A DNA stretch of 64,000 nt from Candidatus Delongbacteria bacterium (GCA_963663545.1 OY760505.1:2773664-2837663); one strand, 5' to 3'. Positions 2,451-63,279 are shown, counted from the first letter of the stretch. Numbers and translations: made by a program. Notes: generated from the letters alone by a model not told the origin.

Positions 2451-3401
2451 TTACGATGTACCACGTGTGGCGAACTTGTTTGCAAACCACTGCCATTCCA
2501 GGCGTGTGCGCTCAATCGTTGTGATACAATGTTCACCGCGCTGCTCGCGGATATAGTCAAGCAGTGTAGAGACAGGCACAAACCAGCCGTCGCGGGCGGC
2601 AAGATCCTCCATCAGCCCTTGGAAACGTGCGTCAAGTCTACCTTGTGATACAAAGCCAGGTGCACCCAGATGAGCATACATGATGCACGCGCCGCCTTCA
2701 TTCTCGAGGCGTAGCTGATTCTCTTCGGAGACTGTGCGACAGAAGGAGTCCAGTGTACCGCCTTCTGCCGAGGCGAACCACTGCTTGACCAAAGGACGCA
2801 GAGTATCGTGATACGGCATCTGAGGGCAACACTTGAGCGTGTTGATGTCCTTGAAGACGAAATTGCGCACGTACTCAATGTGCTGCTCGCACAAGTCACC
2901 CCAGAAGTACTCGCTACCCCGCACCTCTCCCTGGAAACGATGGAGTTTGCGAAAGCGCGTTGCCAGCGTGTAGGCCAGACGGAAGAGCCCGCTTACGCGC
3001 TTGTGTCCCCAGTACAGGCAGTCGCGGCAATCGGAATGGTTCACTTGAATGCGGGGGAAGCTGCCGTAGATGCTGAAGTAGGTATCAAGCCCGGCCACGA
3101 TCTGGGCACGCGGCGAATTGTTGTAGGTCACATTGTGTAGCGCAATTTCGAAGCCGTCCTGCTGCAGACCGCGCGTCCATTCGCGATACTCAGCTTCCTC
3201 GCAAGTCGAGCCCCCCACCTTGGCTTCGCCGACACCCTTGATGGGCCAGACGGATTTGCTTGTCCGCATGCCCAGCGATTTGAGGAAGTCGTAGATCACG
3301 GGCCCATTCTCCATGGTGGTGTGGTCCGTGTCATCGAAAATGGTGAAGGCGAACTTCTTCCCTTCGGGCCAGCGTAGACGAGGTTTGCTTTGCGTTGACA
3401 T
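2451..3401 (-). CDS. conserved hypothetical protein, possibly polysaccharide deacetylase-like
   Basis: 316-aa ORF with N-terminal FAFTIFDDTDH block reminiscent of deacetylase/hydrolase motifs; no confident family assignment. Confidence 0.35.
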   Translation of the reverse strand: MSTQSKPRLRWPEGKKFAFTIFDDTDHTTMENGPVIYDFLKSLGMRTSKSVWPIKGVGEAKVGGSTCEEAEYREWTRGLQQDGFEIALHNVTYNNSPRAQIVAGLDTYFSIYGSFPRIQVNHSDCRDCLYWGHKRVSGLFRLAYTLATRFRKLHRFQGEVRGSEYFWGDLCEQHIEYVRNFVFKDINTLKCCPQMPYHDTLRPLVKQWFASAEGGTLDSFCRTVSEENQLRLENEGGACIMYAHLGAPGFVSQGRLDARFQGLMEDLAARDGWFVPVSTLLDYIREQRGEHCITTIERTRLEWQWFANKFATRGTS

Positions 3402-3522: not shown

Positions 3523-3595
3523 CTCCTGAGGAGGGACTTGAACCCCCAACCTAGTGGTTAACAGCCACCCGCTCTACCGATTGAGCTACTCAGGA
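3523..3595 (-). tRNA. tRNA-Asn (anticodon GTT)
   Basis: Cloverleaf folded by hand on minus strand: 7-bp acceptor stem tcctgag/ctcagga, D-arm gctc/gagc, anticodon stem ggtgg/ccact with loop ctGTTaa, T-arm ggggg-ttcaagt-ccctc; CCA not encoded. Confidence 0.85.
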
Positions 3596-3796
3596 CTGAA
3601 TCACCGTTTGGCGATAGGACGGCCAATATATAGGGCAACCAGCAAAGTGTCAAGCTATGCGAAGTCATTTTCTTTGGCCTACATGCCTTGCAAGCCGAGC
3701 CCGATGGAGCTGCGCGCGTCTGCTGCGCAGATGCTGTCGATCCCTGCTGCAAACCTTACCTTTGGTTCTTTGGTGGAAGACGAACCGGAGGGCGCC

Positions 3797-4411
3797 ATGA
3801 GCGAGGCGAGTTACCGTTGGATCCAGGAGGGGGACCAGAAACAGGTTGTCGATCTGCTGATGCAAGTCAGACCAGGACTTGCTGGCATGTCGAGTCGACC
3901 CGTCTATCGTGCTTTTACTCACGATGCCCTCAAGTACGACAACACCTTTATCATCGTTGCGCTTTGGGGTGAGAAAATCGTCGGTTACGGAATCGCCGTT
4001 CGCGGCTGGGCCGAGTTCAAGCGCCTGTTCATCAAGCGGCACCCATTTGTATCCCTGCTTTCGATCCCGGCACGCATTCTGCGAACCTTCAGGTACATGC
4101 GCGCTGGCAAACCGCAGCCGAAGCAGATCCCCGAGGGAATTCAGGAGCGGGTGAAGGGGTATTCCTGGAATGACAGTGATCCCTCCATTACCAAGTTGCT
4201 GCACGTTGGCGTGGACAAGGACTATCGCTCCCACGGGCTGGGTACCGAACTCTACGCAGAGTTCTTTAGCCATTTGGCCAAGGAGGGCTTCCGTCGGGCG
4301 GACGGCTGTGTCAACCCTGAAAACTTGCCCTCAATTCGGATGGTGGAGAAAAACGGCTGGACCTTTACGCGCGACGGTGACCGCTACTTCATCTTCAAGG
4401 AATTCGAATGA
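3797..4411 (+). CDS. GNAT family N-acetyltransferase
   Basis: ORF trimmed from track start 3554 (which overlaps the tRNA) to ATG 3797 preceded by ggaggg; GNAT-like core IVGYGIA...HVGVDKDYRSHGLGTELY; start uncertain. Confidence 0.55.
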   Translation: MSEASYRWIQEGDQKQVVDLLMQVRPGLAGMSSRPVYRAFTHDALKYDNTFIIVALWGEKIVGYGIAVRGWAEFKRLFIKRHPFVSLLSIPARILRTFRYMRAGKPQPKQIPEGIQERVKGYSWNDSDPSITKLLHVGVDKDYRSHGLGTELYAEFFSHLAKEGFRRADGCVNPENLPSIRMVEKNGWTFTRDGDRYFIFKEFE

Positions 4412-4570
4412 AACAGCCGATGCGGCTGATCGGAGCTGGTGCCTCTCTCCGCTGAGTGAGAGTAGCCGGACCTTTGTGTCACGTGATTGCCTTCCGCCCC
4501 TTGATGACCGCTCCGCATGAGTACTTCCTGACATCTGCGCCTGAGTTTCCAGTAAGTGAAAGGCCCCTGC

Positions 4571-5854
4571 ATGGAGATCGGTATCCTTGTAACACACGGC
4601 ACAGATACATTGGCCTGGACTCTGCCCTACATCCGTTACGCGTTAAAGAACTTCCCTTGGAATGTTTGTCTCACGGGAAGTCAGGCACCGATGGAAAGCG
4701 CCTTCGCGCGCAGTGACGGTTACCAGAACATTCACGGAGCCGTGCGCTTCATGTCGGTGCTTGATCCACCCAACGTCTTCTGCGTGTTCAACAACGGCCT
4801 GAACGCTTACAGCGATTCGCTTGCCAAGCTCGAACGCTGGCGCCTGGATGCTTTTACCGGCGATCCCATTGCCACTATGGAGTGGGACGAGATTCAGCAT
4901 CGCTCTGGTGACGCGCGACTGCGCGAGCCCATTCGCTTTGACGAGCTGCACCTGATTACCACTGGTGGAACGATTGAGAGCGAGGCTGGCGAAGATGGCC
5001 TTACGCCCGGCAGTGGCAAGGTGGAGGAGTTTCTCAAACTGACCTTGGCCGATTCCTTTGAGAACGTCTTTGTGCATCGAATCGCCCGTGTTGATTCGGC
5101 GGAACTGGATGTATCACACATGGAGCGTTTTGCGCGCGCCATTTTCGATTGTGGCACCGGGCGCTGTCCGAGCGAATCGATTCGTCCTGATGCCGACGCG
5201 GATGCCGTGAATGTGACCTATGGCCAGCGCGGTGAGCTGCGGCAATCGTGGGAAGATGGACAGCAGCCGGCAAGTCTGGATCTGTCCTTTGCTCGTCACG
5301 TACCCCTTGTTTACTGTGACCCGTTTCGTAGCGCGTCAAGTTACCGGCGTGAAGTATACGCGGCCAAGGCTGTTGTTTTGGCTGGTTATGGTGGCGGCAA
5401 TGCGAACGCCAACCCCGATCTGCCTGGAAGCGTGATACCGGCACTGATGGATGCGGTGGAGAAGGACTGCCTTTTTGTGCTTAGCAGCCAAGTGCCCATC
5501 GGACCCGTGGACTTTGTCTACGAAACCGCCACCAAGTTGATTCGGCGTGGCGCGCTTTCAGGAGTGGATTTGAGTCTTCCTGAGTGTCAAGTGCGGCTGA
5601 TGTATCTGCTTGGACATGAAGAACAGATTGAAGGCATGGCTGAGCGTCTGCAGATTGAGCCGCTTCTGCTGAAGAAGGCGCTATTCATGTCGGGGATGAA
5701 GTTCCGTAACCGGGCTTCCAAGATGAGTTTTCGCATGCTCAGCGGTGATACATTTCCGCTAATCAGGGAAGACTTGCTGGTGGGACCGGCATTCGAGCAG
5801 TGCGAGGAAATCCTGAAGCGTGCTTTTTACGGTGATACAATCAGCTTGATCTGA
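4571..5854 (+). CDS. L-asparaginase family protein with atypical (apparently permuted) motif order
   Basis: ILVTHGTDT...LTGSQ...SDG.N block at the N-terminus, TTGGTIES block around residue 136, C-domain VVLAGYGGGNAN; start taken at ATG 4571 (track start GTG 4556). Confidence 0.6.
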   Translation: MEIGILVTHGTDTLAWTLPYIRYALKNFPWNVCLTGSQAPMESAFARSDGYQNIHGAVRFMSVLDPPNVFCVFNNGLNAYSDSLAKLERWRLDAFTGDPIATMEWDEIQHRSGDARLREPIRFDELHLITTGGTIESEAGEDGLTPGSGKVEEFLKLTLADSFENVFVHRIARVDSAELDVSHMERFARAIFDCGTGRCPSESIRPDADADAVNVTYGQRGELRQSWEDGQQPASLDLSFARHVPLVYCDPFRSASSYRREVYAAKAVVLAGYGGGNANANPDLPGSVIPALMDAVEKDCLFVLSSQVPIGPVDFVYETATKLIRRGALSGVDLSLPECQVRLMYLLGHEEQIEGMAERLQIEPLLLKKALFMSGMKFRNRASKMSFRMLSGDTFPLIREDLLVGPAFEQCEEILKRAFYGDTISLI

Positions 5855-34339: not shown

Positions 34340-34536
34340 TTGCCCTGCGACAGCGCGTGCTGGCATATCGGATTCCCATTGTGCATCCCCCGTTGGCTTT
34401 AGCTTGCGGGGGATGCGCTTTTCTACTCAAATCACACACTATAACTACGCAACAGAAGCGGCTGGCAGAGGGCTTTGCTACTTTATCACCGAACCTGATC
34501 CACGAGCAGAATCATCCAGATCCAAAAGGCGAGGCG

Positions 34537-36453
34537 ATGAAATACATCCCACTGGCGGAAGCCACGCCCGAGTACTACGAACAGATCGGGCTGAAATCAG
34601 GTCTGGAAATTCATCAGCAGCTACTCACCGACACAAAGCTCTTCTGTCGCTGTCCTGCCGGCATCTACTGCCGCGATTGGGATGCGGAGGTGCTTCGTCA
34701 CATGCGCCCGACGTTGTCGGAGATGGGCGAGTACGACGGTACGGCGCTGATGGAATTCAAGACACGCAAGGAGATCGTCTACCGCATCAAAAACGAGACG
34801 GTCTGTACCTACGAGTTCGATGACACGCCGCCCTTCACCGTTGACGAGAAGGCGGTGGACATTGCCATTGAGGCTGTGATGCAGCTGGGTGGAAGCCTGG
34901 TCAGCGAGATTCACATCACGCGCAAGCAGTACCTGGACGGCTCCATTCCCACGGGTTTTCAGCGCACGACCATCGTCGGCGTTGGCGGCCGCATTCCTTA
35001 CAAAGGTCGCTGGATCGACATCATCCAGTTGAGCCTTGAGGAAGACAGTTGCCGCGAGATCAGCGATTCCGGCCACCGTCGCGTGTACATCACCGACCGC
35101 CTGGGCATGCCGCTCATCGAGACCGTGACCGATTGCCAGATGCATACGCCCCAGGATGTTGCCGGTGTGGCGGAAGTGCTGCGCCGCCTGGTTCGTGCTA
35201 CAGGCAAAGTGCGAACGGGTTCGGGTGCGGGGCGCGAGGATACCAATGTCTCCGTACGCGGAGGCGAGCGCTGCGAAATCAAGGGTGTCGGCTCGATCAA
35301 ACTGATTCCCATTCTGGTGCACAACGAGGCGTTCCGTCAAGTGCAGTTGCTGGAGATTCGTGAAGAGCTGCTGCGTCGCGGTATCACGGAGGATAGCTTC
35401 TCCTGGCGCAGTCAGGATCTGAGCGATCTGGCGGCCGACCTCCCTACCGATGTCGAGCTGGCATTGCAGACTGGCGGAAGCATGCATGCTGTTGTGCTGG
35501 AAGGCTTCGCCGGACTGCTATGCAAGGAGCTGAGTCCCGGACGCAACTTCCTGAGCGAGATTAGTGACCGCGTCCGTGTCATTGCCTGCGTCGACAGCAT
35601 TCCCAATGTGCTGGGCAGCGACGGCGCCGGTGATACGGATCACCCGGGGTTGTGGCAGAAAGTGCGTGCGGCCATGCAGGCCGGAGACGAGGACGCTGTG
35701 ATACTCGTTTGGGGGCCTGCGGCTGATATGGCAACCGCTGTCAGCGAGATCTCCATTCGTGCTCACGAGGCGATTGTTGGCGTGCCACGTGAGACAAGAC
35801 AGCCCATGCCGGACGGTACGACGCGTTTCGAGCGAGTCCTGCCGGGAGCCGATCGCATGTATCCGGATACCGATCTGCCTCCGCAGGCAATCGAGGACGA
35901 ACGCATCGAGCGCATTCGTGCCGGTTTGCCGCTTCCCCCTTGGCAGGTGTACGAAGAGGCCATCGGTGACGGATTGCATCACGAGCTTGCTGCCCGCATC
36001 TCCATTTCGCCCTACGCCGGGCTTTATCGGCGATTGCGTGATACACAGCCTGAACTGCCTGCCAACTTGCTGGCACAGTGCCTTTGCGAGTGGACCGTCG
36101 ATGCGCGTCGTCGCGGCGCTGCGGCATGGAAACTCAGCGACGCTAGTCTGGGCGAAATGCTGGTGGAAGTGGCCACGGGCCGGCTTCTACCAGCCGGGTT
36201 GCATCTCATGCTGATTCGTGATACAAAGGCTGACAGCATTCAGGAGGCAATTGACGAGCTCGGGTTGAATCCAGCAAGCGATGCGGAGATTCTGTCTGCC
36301 ATCGATTCTGCACTGAAGCAGGTGCCCCGCAACAGCGATCCTGCGGCGCGTCATCGCTTCACCATGGGCGAAGCCATGCATCGTTTGCGTGGGCGTGTAA
36401 TGGGCAGAGTCCTTGCCGAGCGGATCAGCCAAGAATTGGAGGCACGCGCGTGA
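34537..36453 (+). CDS. gatE: glutamyl-tRNA(Gln) amidotransferase subunit E (archaeal-type GatE)
   Basis: 638 aa from ATG 34537; GatB/E-type N-terminus GLKSGLEIHQQL...KLFCRCP; length and pairing with downstream GatD-like gene favour GatE over GatB. Confidence 0.75.
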   Translation: MKYIPLAEATPEYYEQIGLKSGLEIHQQLLTDTKLFCRCPAGIYCRDWDAEVLRHMRPTLSEMGEYDGTALMEFKTRKEIVYRIKNETVCTYEFDDTPPFTVDEKAVDIAIEAVMQLGGSLVSEIHITRKQYLDGSIPTGFQRTTIVGVGGRIPYKGRWIDIIQLSLEEDSCREISDSGHRRVYITDRLGMPLIETVTDCQMHTPQDVAGVAEVLRRLVRATGKVRTGSGAGREDTNVSVRGGERCEIKGVGSIKLIPILVHNEAFRQVQLLEIREELLRRGITEDSFSWRSQDLSDLAADLPTDVELALQTGGSMHAVVLEGFAGLLCKELSPGRNFLSEISDRVRVIACVDSIPNVLGSDGAGDTDHPGLWQKVRAAMQAGDEDAVILVWGPAADMATAVSEISIRAHEAIVGVPRETRQPMPDGTTRFERVLPGADRMYPDTDLPPQAIEDERIERIRAGLPLPPWQVYEEAIGDGLHHELAARISISPYAGLYRRLRDTQPELPANLLAQCLCEWTVDARRRGAAAWKLSDASLGEMLVEVATGRLLPAGLHLMLIRDTKADSIQEAIDELGLNPASDAEILSAIDSALKQVPRNSDPAARHRFTMGEAMHRLRGRVMGRVLAERISQELEARA

Positions 36454-37838
36454 GCGATCAGGAAGTCTACAAGGGATATCGTGAGCCGACTCTTTCACTG
36501 CTGAAACAGCACGGCGTACGCGTGTGGAGTGAAGTCGATATCGAGAGTTCGCGAGGCCGCTTCTCGGGTTTGATTCTACCGCGCAGCGAGACCGCCGACG
36601 AGGTTCACATTGTTGTCAAGCTGGCCACCGGCTACAACATTGGTCTGCGCTACGACACCATCCAGTCTATTACTGAGAAGGGCTATAAGGAAGCTCACTA
36701 CAAGATTCCTGAAAAGGAGTTTCCCTACTCACCCAACAAGCCGCGCGTCAAATTGCTGGGAACCGGTGGCACAATTGCGTCCAGACTGGACTACCGCACC
36801 GGTGCTGTGATACCGGCGTTCTCACCCGGTGAACTCTACGGAAGTGTTCCCGAACTGGCAGACATTTGCAATCTGGAAACGGAGAAACTCTACGGCGTTT
36901 TCAGCGAGAACATGGGACCGGAACAGTGGATGGGTGTAGCACGCGCCATTGGCGAGGAAATCGAACGCGGCGTGGATGGCATTGTCATCGGGCATGGTAC
37001 CGATACAATGCATCACACGGCGGCGGCGCTTTCCTTTATGGTGCAGAACACACCGGTGCCCATTGTAATGGTAGGCAGCCAGCGCAGCAGCGACAGGCCG
37101 TCCTCCGATGCAGCGCTTAATCTGATGCACGCCACCCTGACCGCAGCCAGTAGCGATATCGCTGAAGTCATGGTTTGCATGTTCGGTCCTACTTCAGACC
37201 AGTATGGCTTGCTGCATCGCGGTACGCGAGTGCGTAAGATGCACAGCAGCTATCGTAGTACATTCCGCACTCTTGGTGATACACCGCTAGCTATGGTCAA
37301 TCGACAGGAAGTGACTCCCATTAAAAAGGAGTATGCACACCGTCGTCAGGACAAGAATGTGCAGATCAAGGCTGCCTTTGAAGAGCGTGTTACAATTCTC
37401 TACTACTATCCCAACATGCATCCCGATATGGTCGACAGTCTGGTGGACCGGGGCTACAAGGGTATTGTGATTGCCGGCACTGGTTTAGGCCACGTCAACA
37501 AGCCGCTTTACAAGGCGTTGGGACGCGCTTGCGAGCAGGGCGTCTCGGTGTGCATGACTGTGCAGACCCTATGGGGCTATGCGCAGATGTACGTTTACGA
37601 GACGGGACGCGAGTTGATGGAGTTGGGCATTTATCCGCTGGCGAATATGCTTCCGGAAGTGGCCTACGTCAAACTGGGCTGGGCCTTGGGGCAGAGCAGC
37701 GATCCGGTTGAAGTGCGCCGCATCATGGAGACGCCGATTGCCCATGAAATCACACCACGCGAACCCCACAACGGCTATCTGGTTTACCAGGGCGGAATTC
37801 CCGAGGTCGAGGAGTTCATTCGCAACTACCGCAAGTAG
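36450..37838 (+). CDS. gatD: glutamyl-tRNA(Gln) amidotransferase subunit D (archaeal-type GatD)
   Basis: 462 aa; N-terminal extension then asparaginase-like domain LLGTGGTIASRLDYRTGAV and IVIGHGTDTMHHTAAALS; GTGA overlap with gatE stop. Confidence 0.78.
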   Translation: MSDQEVYKGYREPTLSLLKQHGVRVWSEVDIESSRGRFSGLILPRSETADEVHIVVKLATGYNIGLRYDTIQSITEKGYKEAHYKIPEKEFPYSPNKPRVKLLGTGGTIASRLDYRTGAVIPAFSPGELYGSVPELADICNLETEKLYGVFSENMGPEQWMGVARAIGEEIERGVDGIVIGHGTDTMHHTAAALSFMVQNTPVPIVMVGSQRSSDRPSSDAALNLMHATLTAASSDIAEVMVCMFGPTSDQYGLLHRGTRVRKMHSSYRSTFRTLGDTPLAMVNRQEVTPIKKEYAHRRQDKNVQIKAAFEERVTILYYYPNMHPDMVDSLVDRGYKGIVIAGTGLGHVNKPLYKALGRACEQGVSVCMTVQTLWGYAQMYVYETGRELMELGIYPLANMLPEVAYVKLGWALGQSSDPVEVRRIMETPIAHEITPREPHNGYLVYQGGIPEVEEFIRNYRK

Positions 37839-37904: not shown

Positions 37905-39743
37905 CTAGTAGTCAAATCCGAAGTGCGAACGATGATCCTCAACCGAAGAACGTTCTTTGATCCACGCAGCCCAAACACCATAGCTTCCGTTTTGCATGCG
38001 TGTGTAGAAGTCGTTGCGACGCGCTTCGGCTTCTTCGGCATAGCTGGCCGTCAGCTCAGCAACTGGTGTCACGGTGATACACTCGATCAAGTACAGGCCC
38101 TTCTGTCCCTCAATCGGAGCCGAAACCGTTCCCGGCTGCATGGCGAAGAGGGCGGTGGTGAAGTTCAGATCGCGACCTACGTCACCGCGCACATACTGAT
38201 TGATGCGAATCTCTTCCTCGATGGCTCCGAACTTGGCACCATCTACAGCCATTGTGCTGTCAAGGGTTGTCGGAGTGCCATGCGTAGCCAGCCAGGACTG
38301 AAGTGCACCTTGAGCGTCGGCGGTCTGCAGCTGTTTCGTGACAGCATTGTAAACCACATCACGACGGGCCTCGAAGGGCTCAACGCCTGCAGGATTGACC
38401 TTGGTTACGCTGATGACGTACCAGCCACGATCGGCGACATAAACGGGCTGTAACACATCACCCTCGCTAGCAGCGAAGATGAGGGCACTGGCGCGCTCGT
38501 TACGTCCGACTCCAGGAATGGAACCTTCTGCGGTGAAGGGACGGCCATCACTGATCTTCATCTCTCGCAGCTCGGCAACCCGTGCAAGCGGCGTAGTCTG
38601 CGCCTCATCGTAGATGGCGTCGGCTTTGGCTCGCAGATCACTGTACGTCATGCTACTGGCTTGAACCTTGATCAGGATGTGCTGCGCGTTGACCATGTCC
38701 TCACGCTCACCCTGCTCGTTCTCGCGCTCTTCGTGACCATTGACCTTGATCAGGTGGAGACCGAAGCGTGTCTCAATGGGACCAACAATGCTGCCGATCT
38801 CGGCGTCAAAAGCCGCATCGGAGAAGGGCTTGACCATACGGTTCCGGTTGAACCAGCCCAAGTCACCGCCATTCTCGCTGTTGCTTTCGTCACCACTGTG
38901 GTAACGGGCCAGGTCGCCGAAATCCTGTCCATCAGCAAGCTGCTGCTGCAGGAAATGAATCTGGTCCCGGGCATCCGCGCTGTCCTCGGCACTCGGCTCG
39001 ATTTTCAACTGTACGTACTGGATCTCGCGGGTCTCGTCCACCTTGTACTCCTCGCGATGCTCGCGATAGTACTGCTGCAGCATGTTGTCCGTGATACGCG
39101 AAGAGTCAATCTTATAATCCGCGAAGGGGAAGAGTAAATAGCGCGCAGTGGCCGTCTGATTGCGCGAAATGTACTCGTCCATCAGGTCTGCTTCGCTGGG
39201 GATCATGGACGCAGCGAACCGTTCGCGCAGCTTCTCGAGCGGCATTGTCTCGCGGAAGCTCGCTTCGGTATTGGCGATCCAGTTGGCCATCTGCGGGTTA
39301 CGCAGAAAGTCTTTCCACTTCAGCGTGTCAAAGACACCGGCGGTCTGTAAGCTGCTATCACGGGTAACCCACGCAGGAGGAGCGTAAATCAGGCGATCGC
39401 TGATCTCTTTCTCGCTGCTGCCGTAGCCGACCTCATCGATCACCTGCTGCTCAAGCGTCAGATTGACCAGATCGTTCCAACTACCGCGACGGGCTTCACG
39501 AATGGCATTCTCGTCAGCTCGGGTACCGTTTTGCTGCTCTTCGCGCTGCAGGCGATTGCGTACGATCTGCTCGTAGCGCTGCAAATCCACCTTTTCGCCG
39601 TTGATCACGGCCACGGTGGTGTTGTTGCCCTTCTGTACAGTGCTGAAGCCGCCCATACCCCAACTGAAAACGATGGTGGCGACGAAGGCAAGAACCAAAA
39701 TCCAAAGCACAACCTTGGTGTTCTCGCGCATTTTGCGAATCAT
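37905..39743 (-). CDS. periplasmic peptidyl-prolyl isomerase / chaperone (PpiD/SurA family)
   Basis: 612-aa ORF; N-terminal membrane anchor VVLWILVLAFVATIVF; parvulin-like region ...FGLHLIKV... Confidence 0.7.
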   Translation of the reverse strand: MIRKMRENTKVVLWILVLAFVATIVFSWGMGGFSTVQKGNNTTVAVINGEKVDLQRYEQIVRNRLQREEQQNGTRADENAIREARRGSWNDLVNLTLEQQVIDEVGYGSSEKEISDRLIYAPPAWVTRDSSLQTAGVFDTLKWKDFLRNPQMANWIANTEASFRETMPLEKLRERFAASMIPSEADLMDEYISRNQTATARYLLFPFADYKIDSSRITDNMLQQYYREHREEYKVDETREIQYVQLKIEPSAEDSADARDQIHFLQQQLADGQDFGDLARYHSGDESNSENGGDLGWFNRNRMVKPFSDAAFDAEIGSIVGPIETRFGLHLIKVNGHEERENEQGEREDMVNAQHILIKVQASSMTYSDLRAKADAIYDEAQTTPLARVAELREMKISDGRPFTAEGSIPGVGRNERASALIFAASEGDVLQPVYVADRGWYVISVTKVNPAGVEPFEARRDVVYNAVTKQLQTADAQGALQSWLATHGTPTTLDSTMAVDGAKFGAIEEEIRINQYVRGDVGRDLNFTTALFAMQPGTVSAPIEGQKGLYLIECITVTPVAELTASYAEEAEARRNDFYTRMQNGSYGVWAAWIKERSSVEDHRSHFGFDY

Positions 39744-59795: not shown

Positions 59796-62700
59796 TCATT
59801 TCAGCAGCACCATCCTTCTGGTCTGACGCTGCCCGGCACTCTCCAGTGAGTAGAGATAGATGCCGCTGGCGAGCTTGCTGCCGTCAAAGGGCAGGCTGTG
59901 GCTGCCGCTTGCGCGCTCCTCGTCCAGCAATACTTCGACAAGTTGCCCCGTCAGATTGTAGACTTCCAGGCGCACGCGCTCTGGCTGCAGCAGCTGGAAT
60001 TCGATTTGTGTCACAGGATTGAATGGATTGGGGAAGTTCTGCGCCAGCTTGAAGACCTGTGGCTGCCCAGTCTCCGGATCCAGACTGGTGGTGGAAAAAT
60101 CGATGTTGCAAGTATAGACGTCTTTGTGTTCTTCCTTGCCCGAGGCGCGCATGTCGATCCAACTCACGTAAGCACCGTCTGCCTGATTGTAGCTGACATA
60201 GGGAGCGCGCTGACTGAAATCGATTTCGGCAATCGCATCCGCTTGCCAGGGGTGAACAGGGTTCTCTTGCGGCGTGCCACCTGTCGGTGATACATGGTAC
60301 TCCCTTGCCCACAAATCGCGATACCCATACTGGCTGTCAAGCTCTTCCATTTCTGCCACGATTAGCAGACCATTCCAGTTGCCGCGAGGGATCACAGTCG
60401 CGGAAACTCCCTGTTGATTGCCAGCGCCAACAAAGACATCGCCGTTTTGGTCTTCCCATTCCAGCGTGCCATCCGCCAGTAAGTGGCGCATGCCTATATC
60501 ATAGTCCCCATTGGGAGAAATACTGGTGAACACCACGAAAGCGCCATCGTGACGATCCGCGAGGAGCGCAGCTGGTCGATAGCTGTTCCCTTCTGTTACT
60601 ACGCTGGTTGTCCAGAGCGTTTCTCCATCAGCATCAACGGCCATGGCAATCAGATCTGCCTCACTGCCAGTTCCAGGGTAGTCACTCCAGAGGACAATGA
60701 AGCCACCGGCGGAATGTGATACAACCTGGGCATCAGTTTGTCTATCTTCAGCGTTTATCAGAATCCGACCCCCATCTTCCAGCAGACTCGCACCATTCCG
60801 GTCCACATGCTGCATCCGCAGGGAGTACGCAGTCCAGATTCCGCCTCGCCAAATCACCCAGGCGCCGCCCGCTCCATCGGCGATCAATGCCTCCAATCTC
60901 TCCACTTCTTCGTCAGTCGATGTGATACGAATCCCGTTTTGGTCCCAGCAACGATTCCCGTTGAGGTCGAAACACTGCATGTTGACATCGGGATAGAAGA
61001 GGCTGAACTCCGTATCCACGCCTGACCAGGCGACTATCAGCCGATCGCCACTGCGTATCACTTTGGCGTTTGTCTGGTAGGCCAGACCGGACTCCTCATC
61101 AAAATCCTGTGTCACGGGTTGGGCTGCATCCCAGAGCCGGTTGCCTTGCCCATCAATGTGGGTCAGGTAGCTTCGCTGAGCGCAGTAGTTGCCCACTTCC
61201 AGCAGCACATAGGCACCGCCGTTATCATCGGCGAGGAGGTCGTACGCGTACTGACCTCCATCCAGTGTAGGCTCCAGTGGCACACCATTCGGCTCCAGCA
61301 GGCATTCGCCCTCGGCCTGAGTCAAGTGCTGCATGAACACGTGCGGGCCATTCCCGAGGGCGGGGTCTGTCCAGAAGACAAGACAGCCCTCGTCTATCGC
61401 CAAGTTCTTCACCTCGTTGGCGTTTCCCCCGATTCCCTTGACAGTAGTATCACCTGTGTTGCCAAAGCTCAACTCCCCTGAAGCGTTGAGGTGCTGAGTG
61501 CGTATCTCTGCAGCATAGCCAGGGATTGCTTCCAGCCAGGAGACGAATACACCCCCTTCTTGATCCAGCCGCAGCGTGGGGTAAACCGACTGCGCCTCCG
61601 CGGGGGCAAGTGATACAACTGGTATGCCATCCGTTGGCCAAAGTGTTTGACCGTTCTCATCCAGGCTTTGGGCGTAGATGGAAACTGCATTCGATGCGCG
61701 AAAGTCCTGCCAGGTCAGAAAGGCAATACCAGCGTCGTTCACAACCGCTCTTGCCTCAACTTGAAAGTCCTCGGCCTGTGTCACCGGCACGCCGCCACTT
61801 TCCCAGACGCTCGCGTTGTCAACACTCAGTTTCTGGCAGTATAGATCACTCTCGACGTTGTTCGGATCATTGCGGGCATCTTCCCAGGTCAGCAGTGCGC
61901 TGCCAGCACCCGCTGTCGTCAGTTGCGGATTCTGCTCCGTGATGTTCTGGCCGTTGGAGACCGGCGTACCGTTCTCGGCAAAGGAGGCGTTCAGTTCTGA
62001 ATCGAAATGCTGCACAAGAATATCGCCGGCGTTATCATCTGCGTACTCACGGAAGGCGACGAAGCATCCGTCAATGCCATCCCAACACGCGCGCACTGAG
62101 GATTGGAAACCCACCCGGTTTGTAACACACTGGCCATCGCTTCCACTCGCCAGACTTCCATCCGCATACACATGCTCGATGTAGATGTTCTGGTCCGCCT
62201 GAACCCGACGGTCGGTCCAGGCCAGGAACACCCCGCCATCGCCATCCTGATCCATGCTGATGCTTTGCTGATTCCCCTGCAGGGTGCAGATGGCAAGGCC
62301 GTTATCGCCAAACAGGGGATCTACATGGCCATCGGCGTCCACGTGGCTGATGAAGACATCAAGACTGGAGTTGCGGTAATCAGACCAGGCGATCCATGCG
62401 CCACCGTTCTGGTCAGGACAAACCTGATGATCAATGCCCACATAATACTCCGGATCGAAGGAGTAGCCCACGCACTCCGTGCACAACACAACGGGATGCT
62501 GCCAGGCCAGAGCGCCGCCGCCCTCTCCGTCGATGATGTAGTTGATGTAAAGGTCGCCAGCAGGATCCTGCCCGTAGTCGACATAGCTGATGAAGGCACC
62601 GCCGTTTCCATCGCTGCAGAGGGCGGGATCTTCCTGGCGTTTGTCCGCGCCGCTCACCAGCAGACCATCGATGGGATTCGAACCACTGGCATCACTCCAC

Positions 62701-62972
62701 AGATGCGGCGATGCGGGATTGGCCAGCGAGAGCTTTTGTGCGTAGACATCGCGCATGCCGAAGCGTGTGTCCGACCAGGCGACAATCACTTCGCCCTGAT
62801 TGCCCATTGTCACACTGCGGTACCACTCAATGTGATACCCTTGCCGGACGGGAGTTCCGGCCGGATCGTCCCAGAGTAGGGGGACTTCTGCCGAAGCCGT
62901 TTGCTGAAAGGCGCTAAGTAGACATGCTGCAGTCAGGACTAGCGCAGGTGCCAACCTTCGTCCATGTTTCAT
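59796..62972 (-). CDS. large secreted repeat protein with T9SS-type C-terminal sorting domain
   Basis: Start trimmed to ATG 62972 giving signal peptide MKHGRRLAPALVLTAACLLSAFQQTASA; internal repeats; C-terminus ...FPNPFNPVTQIEFQL...LEVYNLTGQLV...GIYLYSL...MVLLK. Confidence 0.7.
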   Translation of the reverse strand: MKHGRRLAPALVLTAACLLSAFQQTASAEVPLLWDDPAGTPVRQGYHIEWYRSVTMGNQGEVIVAWSDTRFGMRDVYAQKLSLANPASPHLWSDASGSNPIDGLLVSGADKRQEDPALCSDGNGGAFISYVDYGQDPAGDLYINYIIDGEGGGALAWQHPVVLCTECVGYSFDPEYYVGIDHQVCPDQNGGAWIAWSDYRNSSLDVFISHVDADGHVDPLFGDNGLAICTLQGNQQSISMDQDGDGGVFLAWTDRRVQADQNIYIEHVYADGSLASGSDGQCVTNRVGFQSSVRACWDGIDGCFVAFREYADDNAGDILVQHFDSELNASFAENGTPVSNGQNITEQNPQLTTAGAGSALLTWEDARNDPNNVESDLYCQKLSVDNASVWESGGVPVTQAEDFQVEARAVVNDAGIAFLTWQDFRASNAVSIYAQSLDENGQTLWPTDGIPVVSLAPAEAQSVYPTLRLDQEGGVFVSWLEAIPGYAAEIRTQHLNASGELSFGNTGDTTVKGIGGNANEVKNLAIDEGCLVFWTDPALGNGPHVFMQHLTQAEGECLLEPNGVPLEPTLDGGQYAYDLLADDNGGAYVLLEVGNYCAQRSYLTHIDGQGNRLWDAAQPVTQDFDEESGLAYQTNAKVIRSGDRLIVAWSGVDTEFSLFYPDVNMQCFDLNGNRCWDQNGIRITSTDEEVERLEALIADGAGGAWVIWRGGIWTAYSLRMQHVDRNGASLLEDGGRILINAEDRQTDAQVVSHSAGGFIVLWSDYPGTGSEADLIAMAVDADGETLWTTSVVTEGNSYRPAALLADRHDGAFVVFTSISPNGDYDIGMRHLLADGTLEWEDQNGDVFVGAGNQQGVSATVIPRGNWNGLLIVAEMEELDSQYGYRDLWAREYHVSPTGGTPQENPVHPWQADAIAEIDFSQRAPYVSYNQADGAYVSWIDMRASGKEEHKDVYTCNIDFSTTSLDPETGQPQVFKLAQNFPNPFNPVTQIEFQLLQPERVRLEVYNLTGQLVEVLLDEERASGSHSLPFDGSKLASGIYLYSLESAGQRQTRRMVLLK

Positions 62973-63279
62973 CTGTTTCCCCGCTTTCGCTGATTCGCCC
63001 GTGCACCACGCACCGGCTGAATGGGTGTACGCCATCGACCCCAGGTTGTATCACGAAAACAGGTTCAGACTCATGCTTGGCTTTCGCGACTTCGGGGAAG
63101 CTGCGTGTGTCACAGTCCCGAAGGAGTAACTCGTCGTGGCTTCATTGCCAGCACGAATGAAGGTGGCTTTGCCGAAGTGGATGCACAATGAAAAAGGAGC
63201 CTCGCCTTTCGAGTGTCAATTTGCATGGACAGAATCGGCATTGAGGTGCCAGACGGGGGTCAGACACTTGCCTGGCACC

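What the first reader, a model, noticed from the sequence alone, without database searches (positions are those of the whole stretch)
4571..5854. Asparaginase-family protein with apparently permuted catalytic motif order
In canonical L-asparaginases the TGGTI block precedes the HGTDT block by ~80 residues. Here the protein begins with the HGTDT...LTGSQ...SDG.N..AVR block (residues ~10-60), the TGGTI-type block (LHLITTGGTIES...DS..L...H) appears around residue 136, and the C-domain (VVLAGYGGGNAN) follows. This suggests a circular permutation or partial tandem duplication within the N-domain. A second asparaginase-fold gene (gatD) is in the same window.
Basis: partly seen in the sequence, partly recalled or inferred. 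Interest (0 to 1): 0.5.

Follow-up and report, generated by a model that had tools for sequence, protein, structure and literature searches.

The report
Naturally permuted asparaginase-like enzyme family
This gene encodes an asparaginase-type enzyme whose catalytic domain has its two halves in swapped order; the swap is a conserved feature of an undescribed protein family found in several bacterial and archaeal lineages, not a sequencing error.

Summary
The ORF at 4571..5854 (+), 427 aa, has a class-1 (type I-like) asparaginase fold with the two halves of the N-terminal catalytic domain swapped. Residues 4-113 match the second half of Pfam PF00710 (HGTDT, TGSQ, catalytic Lys). Residues 120-196 match the first half (TGGTI nucleophile strand, DS motif). 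A normal C-domain follows, then a family-specific helical extension of about 75 aa.

Swapping the two segments back in silico restores one colinear PF00710 match. Each segment occurs only once, so this is a permutation and not a duplication. It is not an artefact:
- At least 120 full-length homologue clusters share the order.
- The family profile reads colinearly in 22 family loci, but in the reversed segment order in about 60 canonical asparaginases and in the window's own GatD.
- dN/dS against an orthologue is about 0.05.
- The AlphaFold2 model is confident (pLDDT 87).

Four of the five residues regarded as crucial for class-1 catalysis are invariant. The lid-loop Tyr is absent.

Relatives include receiver (REC) domain fusions, forms with a large C-terminal extension (a possible GATase-like domain), and canonical-order proteins that share the C-terminal extension.

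The protein is most likely an active cytoplasmic amidohydrolase of unknown substrate. I found no report of such a permutation. I rate it a new variant of a known kind, of moderate interest.

The parts
4571..5854 (+). Complete CDS, 427 aa plus stop: permuted class-1 asparaginase-like protein.
   Evidence: ORF. PF00710 and PF17763 hits. Family HMM score 575 bits.
4580..4909 (+). Segment B (residues 4-113), equivalent to the second half of the canonical N-domain: beta3-HGTDT, alpha3, beta4-TGSQ, alpha4, beta5, beta6 and a hairpin. It carries T11, D12 and K86.
   Evidence: Matches PF00710 positions 79-178 at 59.6 bits when scanned alone. Aligns to EcAI T91, D92 and K163. Secondary structure from the AF2 model.
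4595..4609 (+). HGTDT motif (H9-T13). T11 and D12 correspond to EcAII T89 and D90.
   Evidence: H9-T13 invariant in all 117 sequences.
4826..4828 (+). K86, equivalent to the catalytic Lys (EcAII K162, EcAI K163).
   Evidence: Aligned to K163 of 6nxc_A. Invariant in 117 sequences.
4928..5158 (+). Segment A (residues 120-196), equivalent to the first half of the canonical N-domain: beta1-TTGGTI, lid hairpin, alpha1, beta2-DS and alpha2.
   Evidence: Matches PF00710 positions 2-70 at 27.2 bits, E 3.3e-6, when scanned alone. Family HMM positions 120-198 match the N-termini of about 60 canonical asparaginases.
4958..4975 (+). TTGGTI motif (T130-I135). T134 corresponds to the nucleophile Thr (EcAI T14, EcAII T12).
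   Evidence: Alignment offset to 6nxc_A. T131-I135 invariant in 117 sequences.
5093..5098 (+). D175-S176, the substrate-binding 'DS' motif (EcAII S58).
   Evidence: Invariant in 117 sequences.
5159..5299 (+). Inter-domain linker (residues 197-243). It includes a lineage-specific insertion of about 31 aa (residues ~200-232).
   Evidence: The insertion is shared only with P0001 and partly with P0002. pLDDT is below 50 at residues 212-221.
5300..5617 (+). Asparaginase C-terminal domain (residues 244-349), with GYGGGN at 272-277.
   Evidence: PF17763 at 54 bits, residues 264-356. Aligns to EcAI 253-342.
5618..5851 (+). Family-specific C-terminal four-helix extension (residues 350-427), with invariant F372, G375, R379, S383 and D401.
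   Evidence: No Pfam hit. Conserved in 117 sequences. pLDDT is 92-98. Also present in six canonical-order relatives.

Best explanation
The gene encodes a functional, cytoplasmic member of the class-1 (type I-like) L-asparaginase/glutaminase fold. In this protein the two halves of the N-terminal catalytic domain are encoded in swapped order: B (HGTDT half), then A (TGGTI half), then the C-domain.

Shown:
- The swap is a fixed, inherited trait of a protein family spread over FCB-group bacteria, Acidobacteriota-type MAGs and archaea.
- Each half is homologous to its canonical counterpart and is present once.
- The gene is under strong purifying selection.

Inferred:
- The chain folds into the usual alpha/beta sheet, so that the Thr134 nucleophile (on the strand after residue 123) and the Thr11-Asp12-Lys86 triad form the same active site as in E. 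coli AnsA.
- The enzyme hydrolyses an amide, namely L-Asn, L-Gln or a related amide.
- The family arose from a type I-like ancestor that already carried the extra C-terminal helical extension.

My estimates:
- Real permuted family: about 0.97.
- Active amidohydrolase: about 0.7.
- Free L-asparagine is the physiological substrate: about 0.35.
For: 1. Segment order. PF00710 positions 79-179 match at residues 4-102, and positions 2-70 match at residues ~126-192. E. coli AnsA aligns in the same reversed order. The un-permuted construct gives one colinear match at 85.9 bits.

2. Family level. At least 120 clusters at 90% identity show 37-89% identity over at least 91% of the length, and all begin at the HGTDT strand. 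The family HMM is colinear (positions 2-385, 312-664 bits) in 22 loci. In about 60 canonical asparaginases (95 bits or less) it matches in the order 123-198, then 3-112, then 200-330. The same holds for the window's GatD. An exhaustive search of 1.84 billion representatives found 60 hits at E<=1e-30. The full-length ones match as one colinear stretch, while canonical proteins split into three stretches below about 120 bits.

3. Function retained. H9-G10-T11-D12-T13, T35-G36-S37-Q38, S48-D49, K86, T131-G132-G133-T134-I135 and D175-S176 are invariant in 117 sequences. dN/dS is 0.05 against the 89%-identical orthologue.

5. Origin. Six canonical-order proteins, such as P0179 (PF00710 positions 1-187 colinear), share the C-terminal extension and the K..W..AF motif. 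They group with the permuted family in an NJ tree built on C-domain columns that exclude the extension.
Against: - No enzyme assay or experimental structure exists for any member.
- One of the five residues regarded as crucial for class-1 catalysis, the lid-loop Tyr (EcAII Tyr25; PMC8256714), has no counterpart. The position aligned to EcAI Tyr24 is the nearly invariant Leu144, and no Tyr is conserved in residues 136-150. Canonical-order homologues in L027 and L055 also have Leu there, so this is not decisive.
- I could not read the model's coordinates, so active-site geometry was not measured.
- Sequential structure aligners give only TM 0.45-0.63 and 217-223 aligned residues. This is expected for a permutant but is not proof.
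- There is no conserved operon to point to a substrate.
- Monophyly of the permuted group is unresolved in my short NJ tree: 3 of 300 bootstraps, with two canonical-order proteins nesting inside.
Confidence: 0.75

Rival explanations
1. The fold and the permutation are real, but the enzyme is not a housekeeping L-asparaginase. It would be a regulated amidohydrolase module acting on another amide: glutamine as an ammonia donor, a peptide- or protein-bound Asn/Gln, or a beta-aspartyl or gamma-glutamyl compound. In relatives it would be coupled to two-component signalling or to a second amidotransferase-like domain.
For: - Many divergent family members carry an N-terminal receiver domain. A profile of 16 N-extensions hits response-regulator receiver domains in PDB down to E 3.7e-10, and 9 of 16 match PF00072.
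- Twelve representatives carry a C-terminal extension of 317-439 aa. Nine of these were aligned, and C155-L156, H158-Q159 and Q382-F383-H384-P385-E386 are invariant in that alignment. Its top PDB hits are class-I glutamine amidotransferases.
- The family has its own conserved C-terminal extension with an invariant Arg.
- The lid Tyr is missing.
- The closest solved relatives include GatD, which supplies ammonia to a partner enzyme.
Against: - The window protein itself has neither fusion.
- Its DS(A/S)(D/E)L and TGSQ substrate-binding motifs look like ordinary type I enzymes.
- No partner gene is conserved next to the stand-alone forms.
- The GATase-like assignment is not statistically significant (best E 0.06).
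Confidence: 0.3
2. The unusual order is an artefact: misassembly, a frameshift hiding a canonical N-terminus, or a decaying pseudogene.
For: This is the default suspicion for a Pfam domain that appears truncated at the N-terminus.
Against: - The same order occurs in independent assemblies from ENA, JGI, NCBI and Logan.
- The upstream 160 bp has stops in all frames and no asparaginase-like sequence, and it abuts a GNAT gene ending at 4411.
- dN/dS is 0.05.
- The TGGTI half is present downstream, in frame.
Confidence: 0.01
3. The N-domain is partially tandemly duplicated (A-B-A or B-A-B with a degenerate copy) rather than permuted.
For: The duplication-then-deletion route is the textbook path to circular permutants, so intermediates could exist.
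Against: - Residues 1-196 hold exactly one copy of each half. PF00710 positions 2-70 and 79-179 are each matched once.
- The size equals that of a canonical N-domain.
- No representative with a duplicated N-domain appeared among the best 150 hits.
Confidence: 0.02
4. It is a catalytically dead pseudoenzyme used as a binding or scaffold protein.
For: The lid-loop Tyr is absent. All NCBIfam asparaginase models score far below their cut-offs.
Against: The nucleophile Thr, the Thr-Asp-Lys triad and the substrate-binding Ser are invariant across 117 sequences that are only 37-89% identical to the window protein. That pattern is typical of an active enzyme.
Confidence: 0.05

Closest known systems
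Type I (cytosolic) bacterial/archaeal L-asparaginases: E. coli AnsA/EcAI (PDB 2P2D, 2HIM, 6NXC), Pyrococcus and Thermococcus enzymes (1WLS, 4Q0M, 5OT0); NCBIfam TIGR00519
   Same: - They are the best sequence and structure matches.
- Both have two domains, N and C.
- Both carry the TGGTI, DS, HGTDT, TGSQ and catalytic Lys motifs and the G-x-G-x-G-N loop of the C-domain.
- Neither has a signal peptide.
   Different: - The two halves of the N-domain are in reversed order.
- There is an extra helical C-terminal extension of about 75 aa.
- The lid-loop Tyr is not conserved.
- TIGR00519 scores 76 bits against a cut-off of 260.5.
GatD, the glutaminase subunit of archaeal-type Glu-tRNA(Gln) amidotransferase GatDE (PDB 1ZQ1, 2D6F); a canonical copy lies in this window at 36450..37838
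   Different: - GatD has the canonical segment order, an extra N-terminal domain and a GatE partner encoded next to it.
- The target has none of these.
- The target scores 66.5 bits on NF003217 against a cut-off of 310.
Short-chain asparaginases (Rhodospirillum rubrum RrA family; PDB 8UOO etc.; PMC10949315)
   Same: They are another recently recognised architectural variant of the class-1 fold. Both halves of the target hit RrA-type chains weakly.
   Different: RrA-type enzymes lack the C-domain and keep the canonical order. The target keeps the C-domain and permutes the N-domain.
Canonical-order asparaginase-like proteins with the same C-terminal extension (P0179, P0182, P0188, P0202, P0207, P0232)
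   Same: - They share the helical extension, including the (L/F)xSGxKFR..S motif.
- They share the K..W..AF motif.
- They group with the permuted family in the C-domain NJ tree.
   Different: Their N-domain is colinear with PF00710; in P0179, positions 1-187 match at 139.7 bits. They are uncharacterised metagenomic proteins.

Membership tests
Class-1 L-asparaginase/glutaminase superfamily (Pfam PF00710 + PF17763) | N-terminal domain matches PF00710 above the gathering score | tested here: met
   79 bits against a cut-off of 22.5, but in two non-colinear stretches.
Class-1 L-asparaginase/glutaminase superfamily (Pfam PF00710 + PF17763) | C-terminal domain matches PF17763 above the gathering score | tested here: met
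   54 bits against a cut-off of 34.6, residues 264-356.
Class-1 L-asparaginase/glutaminase superfamily (Pfam PF00710 + PF17763) | Canonical sequence order of the N-domain, with the TGGTI strand before the HGTDT strand | tested here: not met
   The order is reversed.
Class-1 L-asparaginase/glutaminase superfamily (Pfam PF00710 + PF17763) | The five residues regarded as crucial for catalysis: EcAII Thr12, Tyr25, Thr89, Asp90 and Lys162 (PMC8256714) | tested here: inconclusive
   T134, T11, D12 and K86 are invariant in 117 sequences. The lid Tyr is absent, with Leu144 at the aligned position. Some canonical-order homologues also have Leu there.
Class-1 L-asparaginase/glutaminase superfamily (Pfam PF00710 + PF17763) | Hydrolysis of L-Asn and/or L-Gln | not testable with these tools
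   Needs an enzyme assay.
Type I asparaginase (NCBIfam TIGR00519 asnASE_I; NF006998 AnsA) | Whole-protein score at or above the curated cut-off | tested here: not met
   TIGR00519 scores 76.1 against 260.5. NF006998 scores 64.3 against 376.
GatD (NF003217 / TIGR02153) | Whole-protein score at or above the cut-off, a GatD N-terminal domain and an adjacent gatE | tested here: not met
   66.5 against 310 and 56 against 324. The neighbours are a GNAT gene and an Fe-ADH gene. The real gatE-gatD pair is at 34357..37838.
Natural circular permutant (of the N-domain) | Both segments are homologous to the corresponding canonical segments, each present once, in reversed order | tested here: met
   Segment B alone scores 59.6 bits on profile positions 79-178. 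Segment A alone scores 27.2 bits on positions 2-70. About 60 canonical proteins show the reciprocal pattern.
Natural circular permutant (of the N-domain) | In-silico re-permutation restores a single colinear alignment | tested here: met
   One stretch, 13-189 to profile 2-179, at 85.9 bits.
Natural circular permutant (of the N-domain) | Same three-dimensional fold as the un-permuted relatives | tested here: inconclusive
   The AF2 model is confident and its secondary-structure order fits. All top fold hits are asparaginases. No permutation-aware superposition or experimental structure was available.

The most novel reading that the evidence does not exclude
The permuted asparaginase module would be a previously unrecognised enzymatic output domain of two-component signalling: REC-fused forms switched by phosphorylation. 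Together with the forms carrying the GATase-like extension, it would define a family of regulated amide-nitrogen-releasing enzymes whose real substrate is not free asparagine. The stand-alone protein in this window would be the unregulated form of that activity. The permutation may have been fixed because it places the new N-terminus, and therefore any fused regulatory domain, next to the HGTDT catalytic strand.
Probability: 0.25. Interest if true: 0.65.

Novelty: new variant of a known kind. Interest (0 to 1): 0.5.

Why it matters
Class-1 asparaginases are among the most studied therapeutic and food-industry enzymes. Large surveys and a dedicated 2026 database classify every PF00710 protein as type I or type II.

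A conserved clade with a permuted catalytic domain has gone unnoticed. Domain scans report it simply as 'Asparaginase N + C', and NCBI calls it 'asparaginase domain-containing protein'.

It matters for three reasons:
- It is a natural experiment on how the left-handed-crossover active site tolerates rewiring of chain connectivity.
- It gives a new scaffold, with different termini, for engineering and fusions.
- The REC-fused relatives hint that amide hydrolysis can be placed under two-component control.

It also warns that 'partial domain' hits at a protein's N-terminus can hide real permutations.

Tried and rejected
- **Exact-sequence look-up of the window protein.** Not on record.
- **Conserved gene neighbourhood.** All-against-all BLAST of ORFs from 21 family loci found nothing shared. 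The only exception is local synteny (trpS, Fe-ADH, TetR) among the 3-4 closest relatives (contexts).
- **Small upstream gene.** The two 100-aa upstream genes in L004 and L005 are unrelated.
- **Defence-system link.** There were no PADLOC hits apart from receiver-like noise.
- **GATase-1 identity of the large C-terminal extension in ~740-840-aa relatives.** Only motif-level support was found. Pfam PF00117 gives E 0.027, and the profile against PDB gives a best E of 0.06. Eleven of 15 top hits are GATases, with both motifs in the right order. Three of the 12 extension-bearing proteins lack the Cys. I left this as a lead.
- **Receiver identity of the N-extensions.** My own HMM of the N-extensions did not hit the window's receiver domains. 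The profile against PDB and the per-member Pfam scan then showed they are receiver domains.
- **AFDB Foldseek.** The library was unavailable.
- **First AF2 run.** With 32 sequences, residues 75-113 had low confidence. The 117-sequence alignment resolved this.
- **First NJ/bootstrap script.** It timed out. In the second, fragments had been misclassified as canonical. This was corrected.
- **Literature.** I searched for 'asparaginase' with circular permutation, permuted, circularly permuted, PF00710, and receiver/output domain. I also term-searched the 2021 IUCrJ review, the 2022 survey, the 2024 RrA paper and the 2026 Asparaginase Database paper. None describes a permuted class-1 enzyme; the hits concern engineered Ntn-type (class 2) permutants.

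Full report
**What is there.** The ORF runs from the ATG at 4571 to the TGA at 5852-5854 on the + strand and encodes 427 aa. An in-frame GTG at 4556 would add five residues, but the closest homologues start at MEIGILVTHGTDT.
- HGTDT at residues 9-13
- LTGSQ at 34-38
- SDG at 48-50
- TTGGTI at 130-135
- DS at 175-176
- GYGGGN at 272-277

**The order is reversed.**
- Pfam matches PF00710 (Asparaginase N-terminal, 193 positions) with residues 4-102 on profile positions 79-179. It matches PF17763 (C-domain) with residues 264-356.
- Against E. coli AnsA (6nxc_A), query 4-97 aligns to chain 104-194, query 120-157 to chain 20-57, and query 264-356 to chain 253-342.
- I cut the protein into residues 1-113 and 114-200 and scanned each alone. 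The first matches profile positions 79-178 at 59.6 bits. The second matches positions 2-70 at 27.2 bits (E 3.3e-6), above the gathering score of 22.5.
- Re-joining the pieces in the canonical order (114-200 + 1-113 + 201-427) gives one colinear match to positions 2-179 at 85.9 bits. The native order gives 79 bits in two stretches.
- Each half occurs once, and the N-domain has the normal size. This is a permutation and not a duplication.

**It is not an artefact.**
- The 160-bp spacer upstream follows a GNAT acetyltransferase gene that ends at 4411. It has stop codons in all frames and nothing asparaginase-like.
- A search of 5.8 billion proteins returned 530 hits. The best 120 clusters are 37-89% identical, and all but one 249-aa fragment cover at least 91% of the query. 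They are 385-425 aa long, and three carry Sel1 repeats.
- In alignments of 32 and 117 members, every sequence begins at the HGTDT strand.
- An HMM of the family reads colinearly (positions 2-385, 312-664 bits) in 22 loci from independent assemblies.
- In about 60 canonical asparaginases from Bacillota, Pseudomonadota, archaea and others, the same HMM matches in the order 123-198, then 3-75/112, then 200-330, at no more than 95 bits.
- The window's own GatD paralogue shows the same reversed pattern.
- Against the 89%-identical orthologue on L001, pN is 0.074 and pS is 0.659, giving dN/dS of about 0.05. dS is near saturation.

**Predicted structure.**
- With the 117-sequence alignment, AlphaFold2 gives mean pLDDT 87.4 and pTM 0.90. 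Only the lineage-specific linker insertion is poorly predicted.
- A first run with 32 sequences had left residues 75-113 uncertain.
- The secondary-structure elements are those of a class-1 N-domain read from the middle, followed by the rest of the protein:
  - strand 3-10 then HGTDT, helix 11-24, strand 31-37 (TGSQ), helix 49-63, strands 68-73 and 78-80, hairpin 99-110;
  - strand 123-130 then TGGTI, lid hairpin 137-146, helix 150-158, strand 163-170 then DS, helix 181-196;
  - the linker, the C-domain, and four extra helices at 350-426.
- The top 50 Foldseek hits are all type I asparaginases or GatD, with target-normalised TM 0.45-0.63. Partial coverage is what sequential aligners should give for a permutant.
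- I could not read the coordinates, so I did not measure active-site geometry.

**Catalytic residues.** The alignment to EcAI gives these equivalences:

| This protein | EcAI | EcAII |
|---|---|---|
| T134 | T14 (nucleophile) | T12 |
| T11, D12 | T91, D92 | T89, D90 |
| K86 | K163 | K162 |
| S176 | substrate-binding Ser | S58 |

- All of these are invariant in 117 sequences, as are TGSQ, SD(48-49) and the GGG of the GYGGGN loop (G274-G276).
- The review PMC8256714 lists Thr12, Tyr25, Thr89, Asp90 and Lys162 as the five crucial residues. Four are kept.
- The lid-loop Tyr is not kept. Leu144 is nearly invariant at the aligned position, and no Tyr is conserved in residues 136-150.
- Canonical-order homologues from Heyndrickxia coagulans (L027) and an Oscillospiraceae MAG (L055) also have G-L-x-P there. 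The loss is therefore not peculiar to the permuted family.
- The N-terminus is a buried strand, with no signal peptide by inspection, so the protein should be cytoplasmic.

**Size and make-up of the family.**
- An exhaustive profile search of 1.84 billion cluster representatives found 60 proteins at E<=1e-30. Apart from fragments, these match the profile as one colinear stretch. Canonical asparaginases follow below about 120 bits, split into three stretches.
- The GTDB species set yielded 16 loci with full-length matches. All are MAGs, labelled Bacteroidales, Rikenellaceae, Tannerella, Prevotella, Thermoanaerobaculaceae or Aminicenantes.
- Named database entries include Candidatus Delongbacteria and KSB1.
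- One member with the large C-terminal extension sits in an archaeal context, next to eIF-1A, RIO1 and a KRR1-type KH protein.
- Architectures:
  - stand-alone, about 390-415 aa, the window type;
  - an N-terminal extension of about 145-165 aa plus the module;
  - extensions of about 220-390 aa plus the module;
  - the module plus a C-terminal extension of 317-439 aa.
- The N-extensions are receiver domains. A profile of 16 of them hits response-regulator receivers in PDB down to E 3.7e-10 over nearly the full length, and 9 of 16 match PF00072.
- The large C-terminal extension has invariant C155-L156, H158-Q159 and Q382-F383-H384-P385-E386 in the nine sequences aligned, and its top PDB hits are TrpG, PabA and GuaA-type class-I amidotransferases. 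With a best E of 0.06 this remains a lead.
- All fused forms tested show the same breakpoint.

**Origin.**
- Six canonical-order proteins (P0179, P0182, P0188, P0202, P0207, P0232) carry the same C-terminal helical extension, including the (L/F)xSGxKFR..S motif. The four whose sequences I inspected (P0179, P0182, P0188, P0202), together with the fragment P0190, show the family's K..W..(A/D)AF variant of the catalytic-Lys region.
- Pfam, run on five of the six (not P0207), reads their N-domains colinearly. In P0179, positions 1-187 match at 139.7 bits.
- I built a neighbour-joining tree on 95 C-domain columns (HMM 236-330). These columns exclude the extension that defines the six proteins.
  - The smallest clades containing all 51 permuted sequences add only these six proteins and exclude 72 other canonical asparaginases.
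  - Support is modest: 129 of 300 bootstraps give 'permuted plus only extension-bearing' proteins.
  - Monophyly of the permuted set is unresolved (3 of 300), and P0182 and P0202 nest inside.
- My inference is that a type I-like ancestor already had the extension and the swap happened within that lineage. A single event is the most parsimonious reading, because the breakpoints are shared. I found no duplicated intermediates.

**Function.**
- The stand-alone genes have no conserved neighbours. Only the nearest relatives share trpS, an Fe-ADH gene and a TetR gene with the window. There is no defence-system signal.
- No NCBIfam model reaches its cut-off: TIGR00519 scores 76 against 260.5, and GatD scores 66.5 against 310.
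- The best-supported reading is an active Thr-nucleophile amidohydrolase of the type I kind.
- Whether its substrate is free L-Asn is open. The receiver fusions and the possible amidotransferase-like fusions in relatives, the missing lid Tyr and the conserved extra domain all leave room for a different, regulated role.

**Comparison with the literature.** I searched the held library for asparaginase together with circular permutation, permuted, circularly permuted, PF00710, or receiver/output domain. I also term-searched four papers:
- the 2021 IUCrJ review (PMC8256714);
- the 2022 survey of 45,555 bacterial species, which bins every PF00710 protein into type AI or AII (PMC9500103);
- the 2024 short-chain RrA paper (PMC10949315);
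- the 2026 Asparaginase Database paper (PMC13425635).

None mentions a permuted class-1 enzyme. The only permutants discussed are engineered class-2 (Ntn) proteins. Subscription-only papers were not searchable.

**Verdict.** This is a real, conserved and apparently undescribed topological variant of a very well-known enzyme fold, with interesting fused relatives but no experimental data. I rate it a new variant of a known kind, with interest of about 0.5.

Noticed in passing
window 34357..36453 (+) and 36450..37838 (+): This is an archaeal-type gatE-gatD operon, with overlapping stop and start. GatE scores 484.9 bits on NF003107 (cut-off 456) and GatD 507.9 bits on NF003217 (cut-off 310). The rest of the window looks bacterial and FCB-like: a T9SS sorting-domain protein at 59796..63035 (-), a SurA-like PPIase at 37905..39743 (-), and many two-component kinases. 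GatDE is usually regarded as an archaeal signature, so this suggests horizontal transfer.
   Followed up: partly
relatives P0126, P0128, P0129, P0131, P0132, P0138, P0140-P0142 and others (not in the window): Divergent members of the permuted family carry an N-terminal response-regulator receiver domain. Some have a further upstream region of about 150-200 aa. The asparaginase-like module appears to serve as a two-component output domain.
   Followed up: partly
relatives P0123, P0125, P0130, P0133, P0139, P0146, P0147, P0149, P0151, P0154, P0155, P0163; locus L088 8001-10490: These forms of ~740-840 aa add a C-terminal region of 317-439 aa. In nine of them that were aligned, CL.HQ and QFHPE are invariant, in the order of a class-I glutamine amidotransferase triad. 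Statistical support is weak (best E 0.06), and three of the twelve lack the Cys. P0123 lies in an archaeal context.
   Followed up: partly
relatives P0179, P0182, P0188, P0202, P0207, P0232: These are canonical-order asparaginase-like proteins that share the permuted family's C-terminal helical extension. They cluster with the family in a C-domain tree and are candidate un-permuted sister lineages.
   Followed up: partly
window 5168..5266 (residues ~200-232 of the target): A low-complexity insertion of about 31 aa (SESIRPDADADAVNVTYGQRGELRQSWEDGQQ) lies in the inter-domain linker. It is shared only with the nearest orthologue P0001 and is predicted to be disordered.
   Followed up: no
relatives P0109, P0113, P0119; locus L016 5953-7656: Some Bacteroidales-type family members, about 557-559 aa long, carry C-terminal Sel1 repeats (PF08238) after the extension.
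   Followed up: no
window 3554..4411 (+): The GNAT acetyltransferase ORF just upstream is listed as 285 aa from a GTG. The orthologue on L001 is called at 204 aa, and the GNAT match covers only the last ~80 residues. The true start is probably further downstream.
   Followed up: no
window 2451..3401 (-); L001 5986..6936 (-): A 316-aa ORF with no Pfam hit is conserved in length and position in the closest relative's contig. It sits between a FemAB/GNAT-like gene and the GNAT gene.
   Followed up: no
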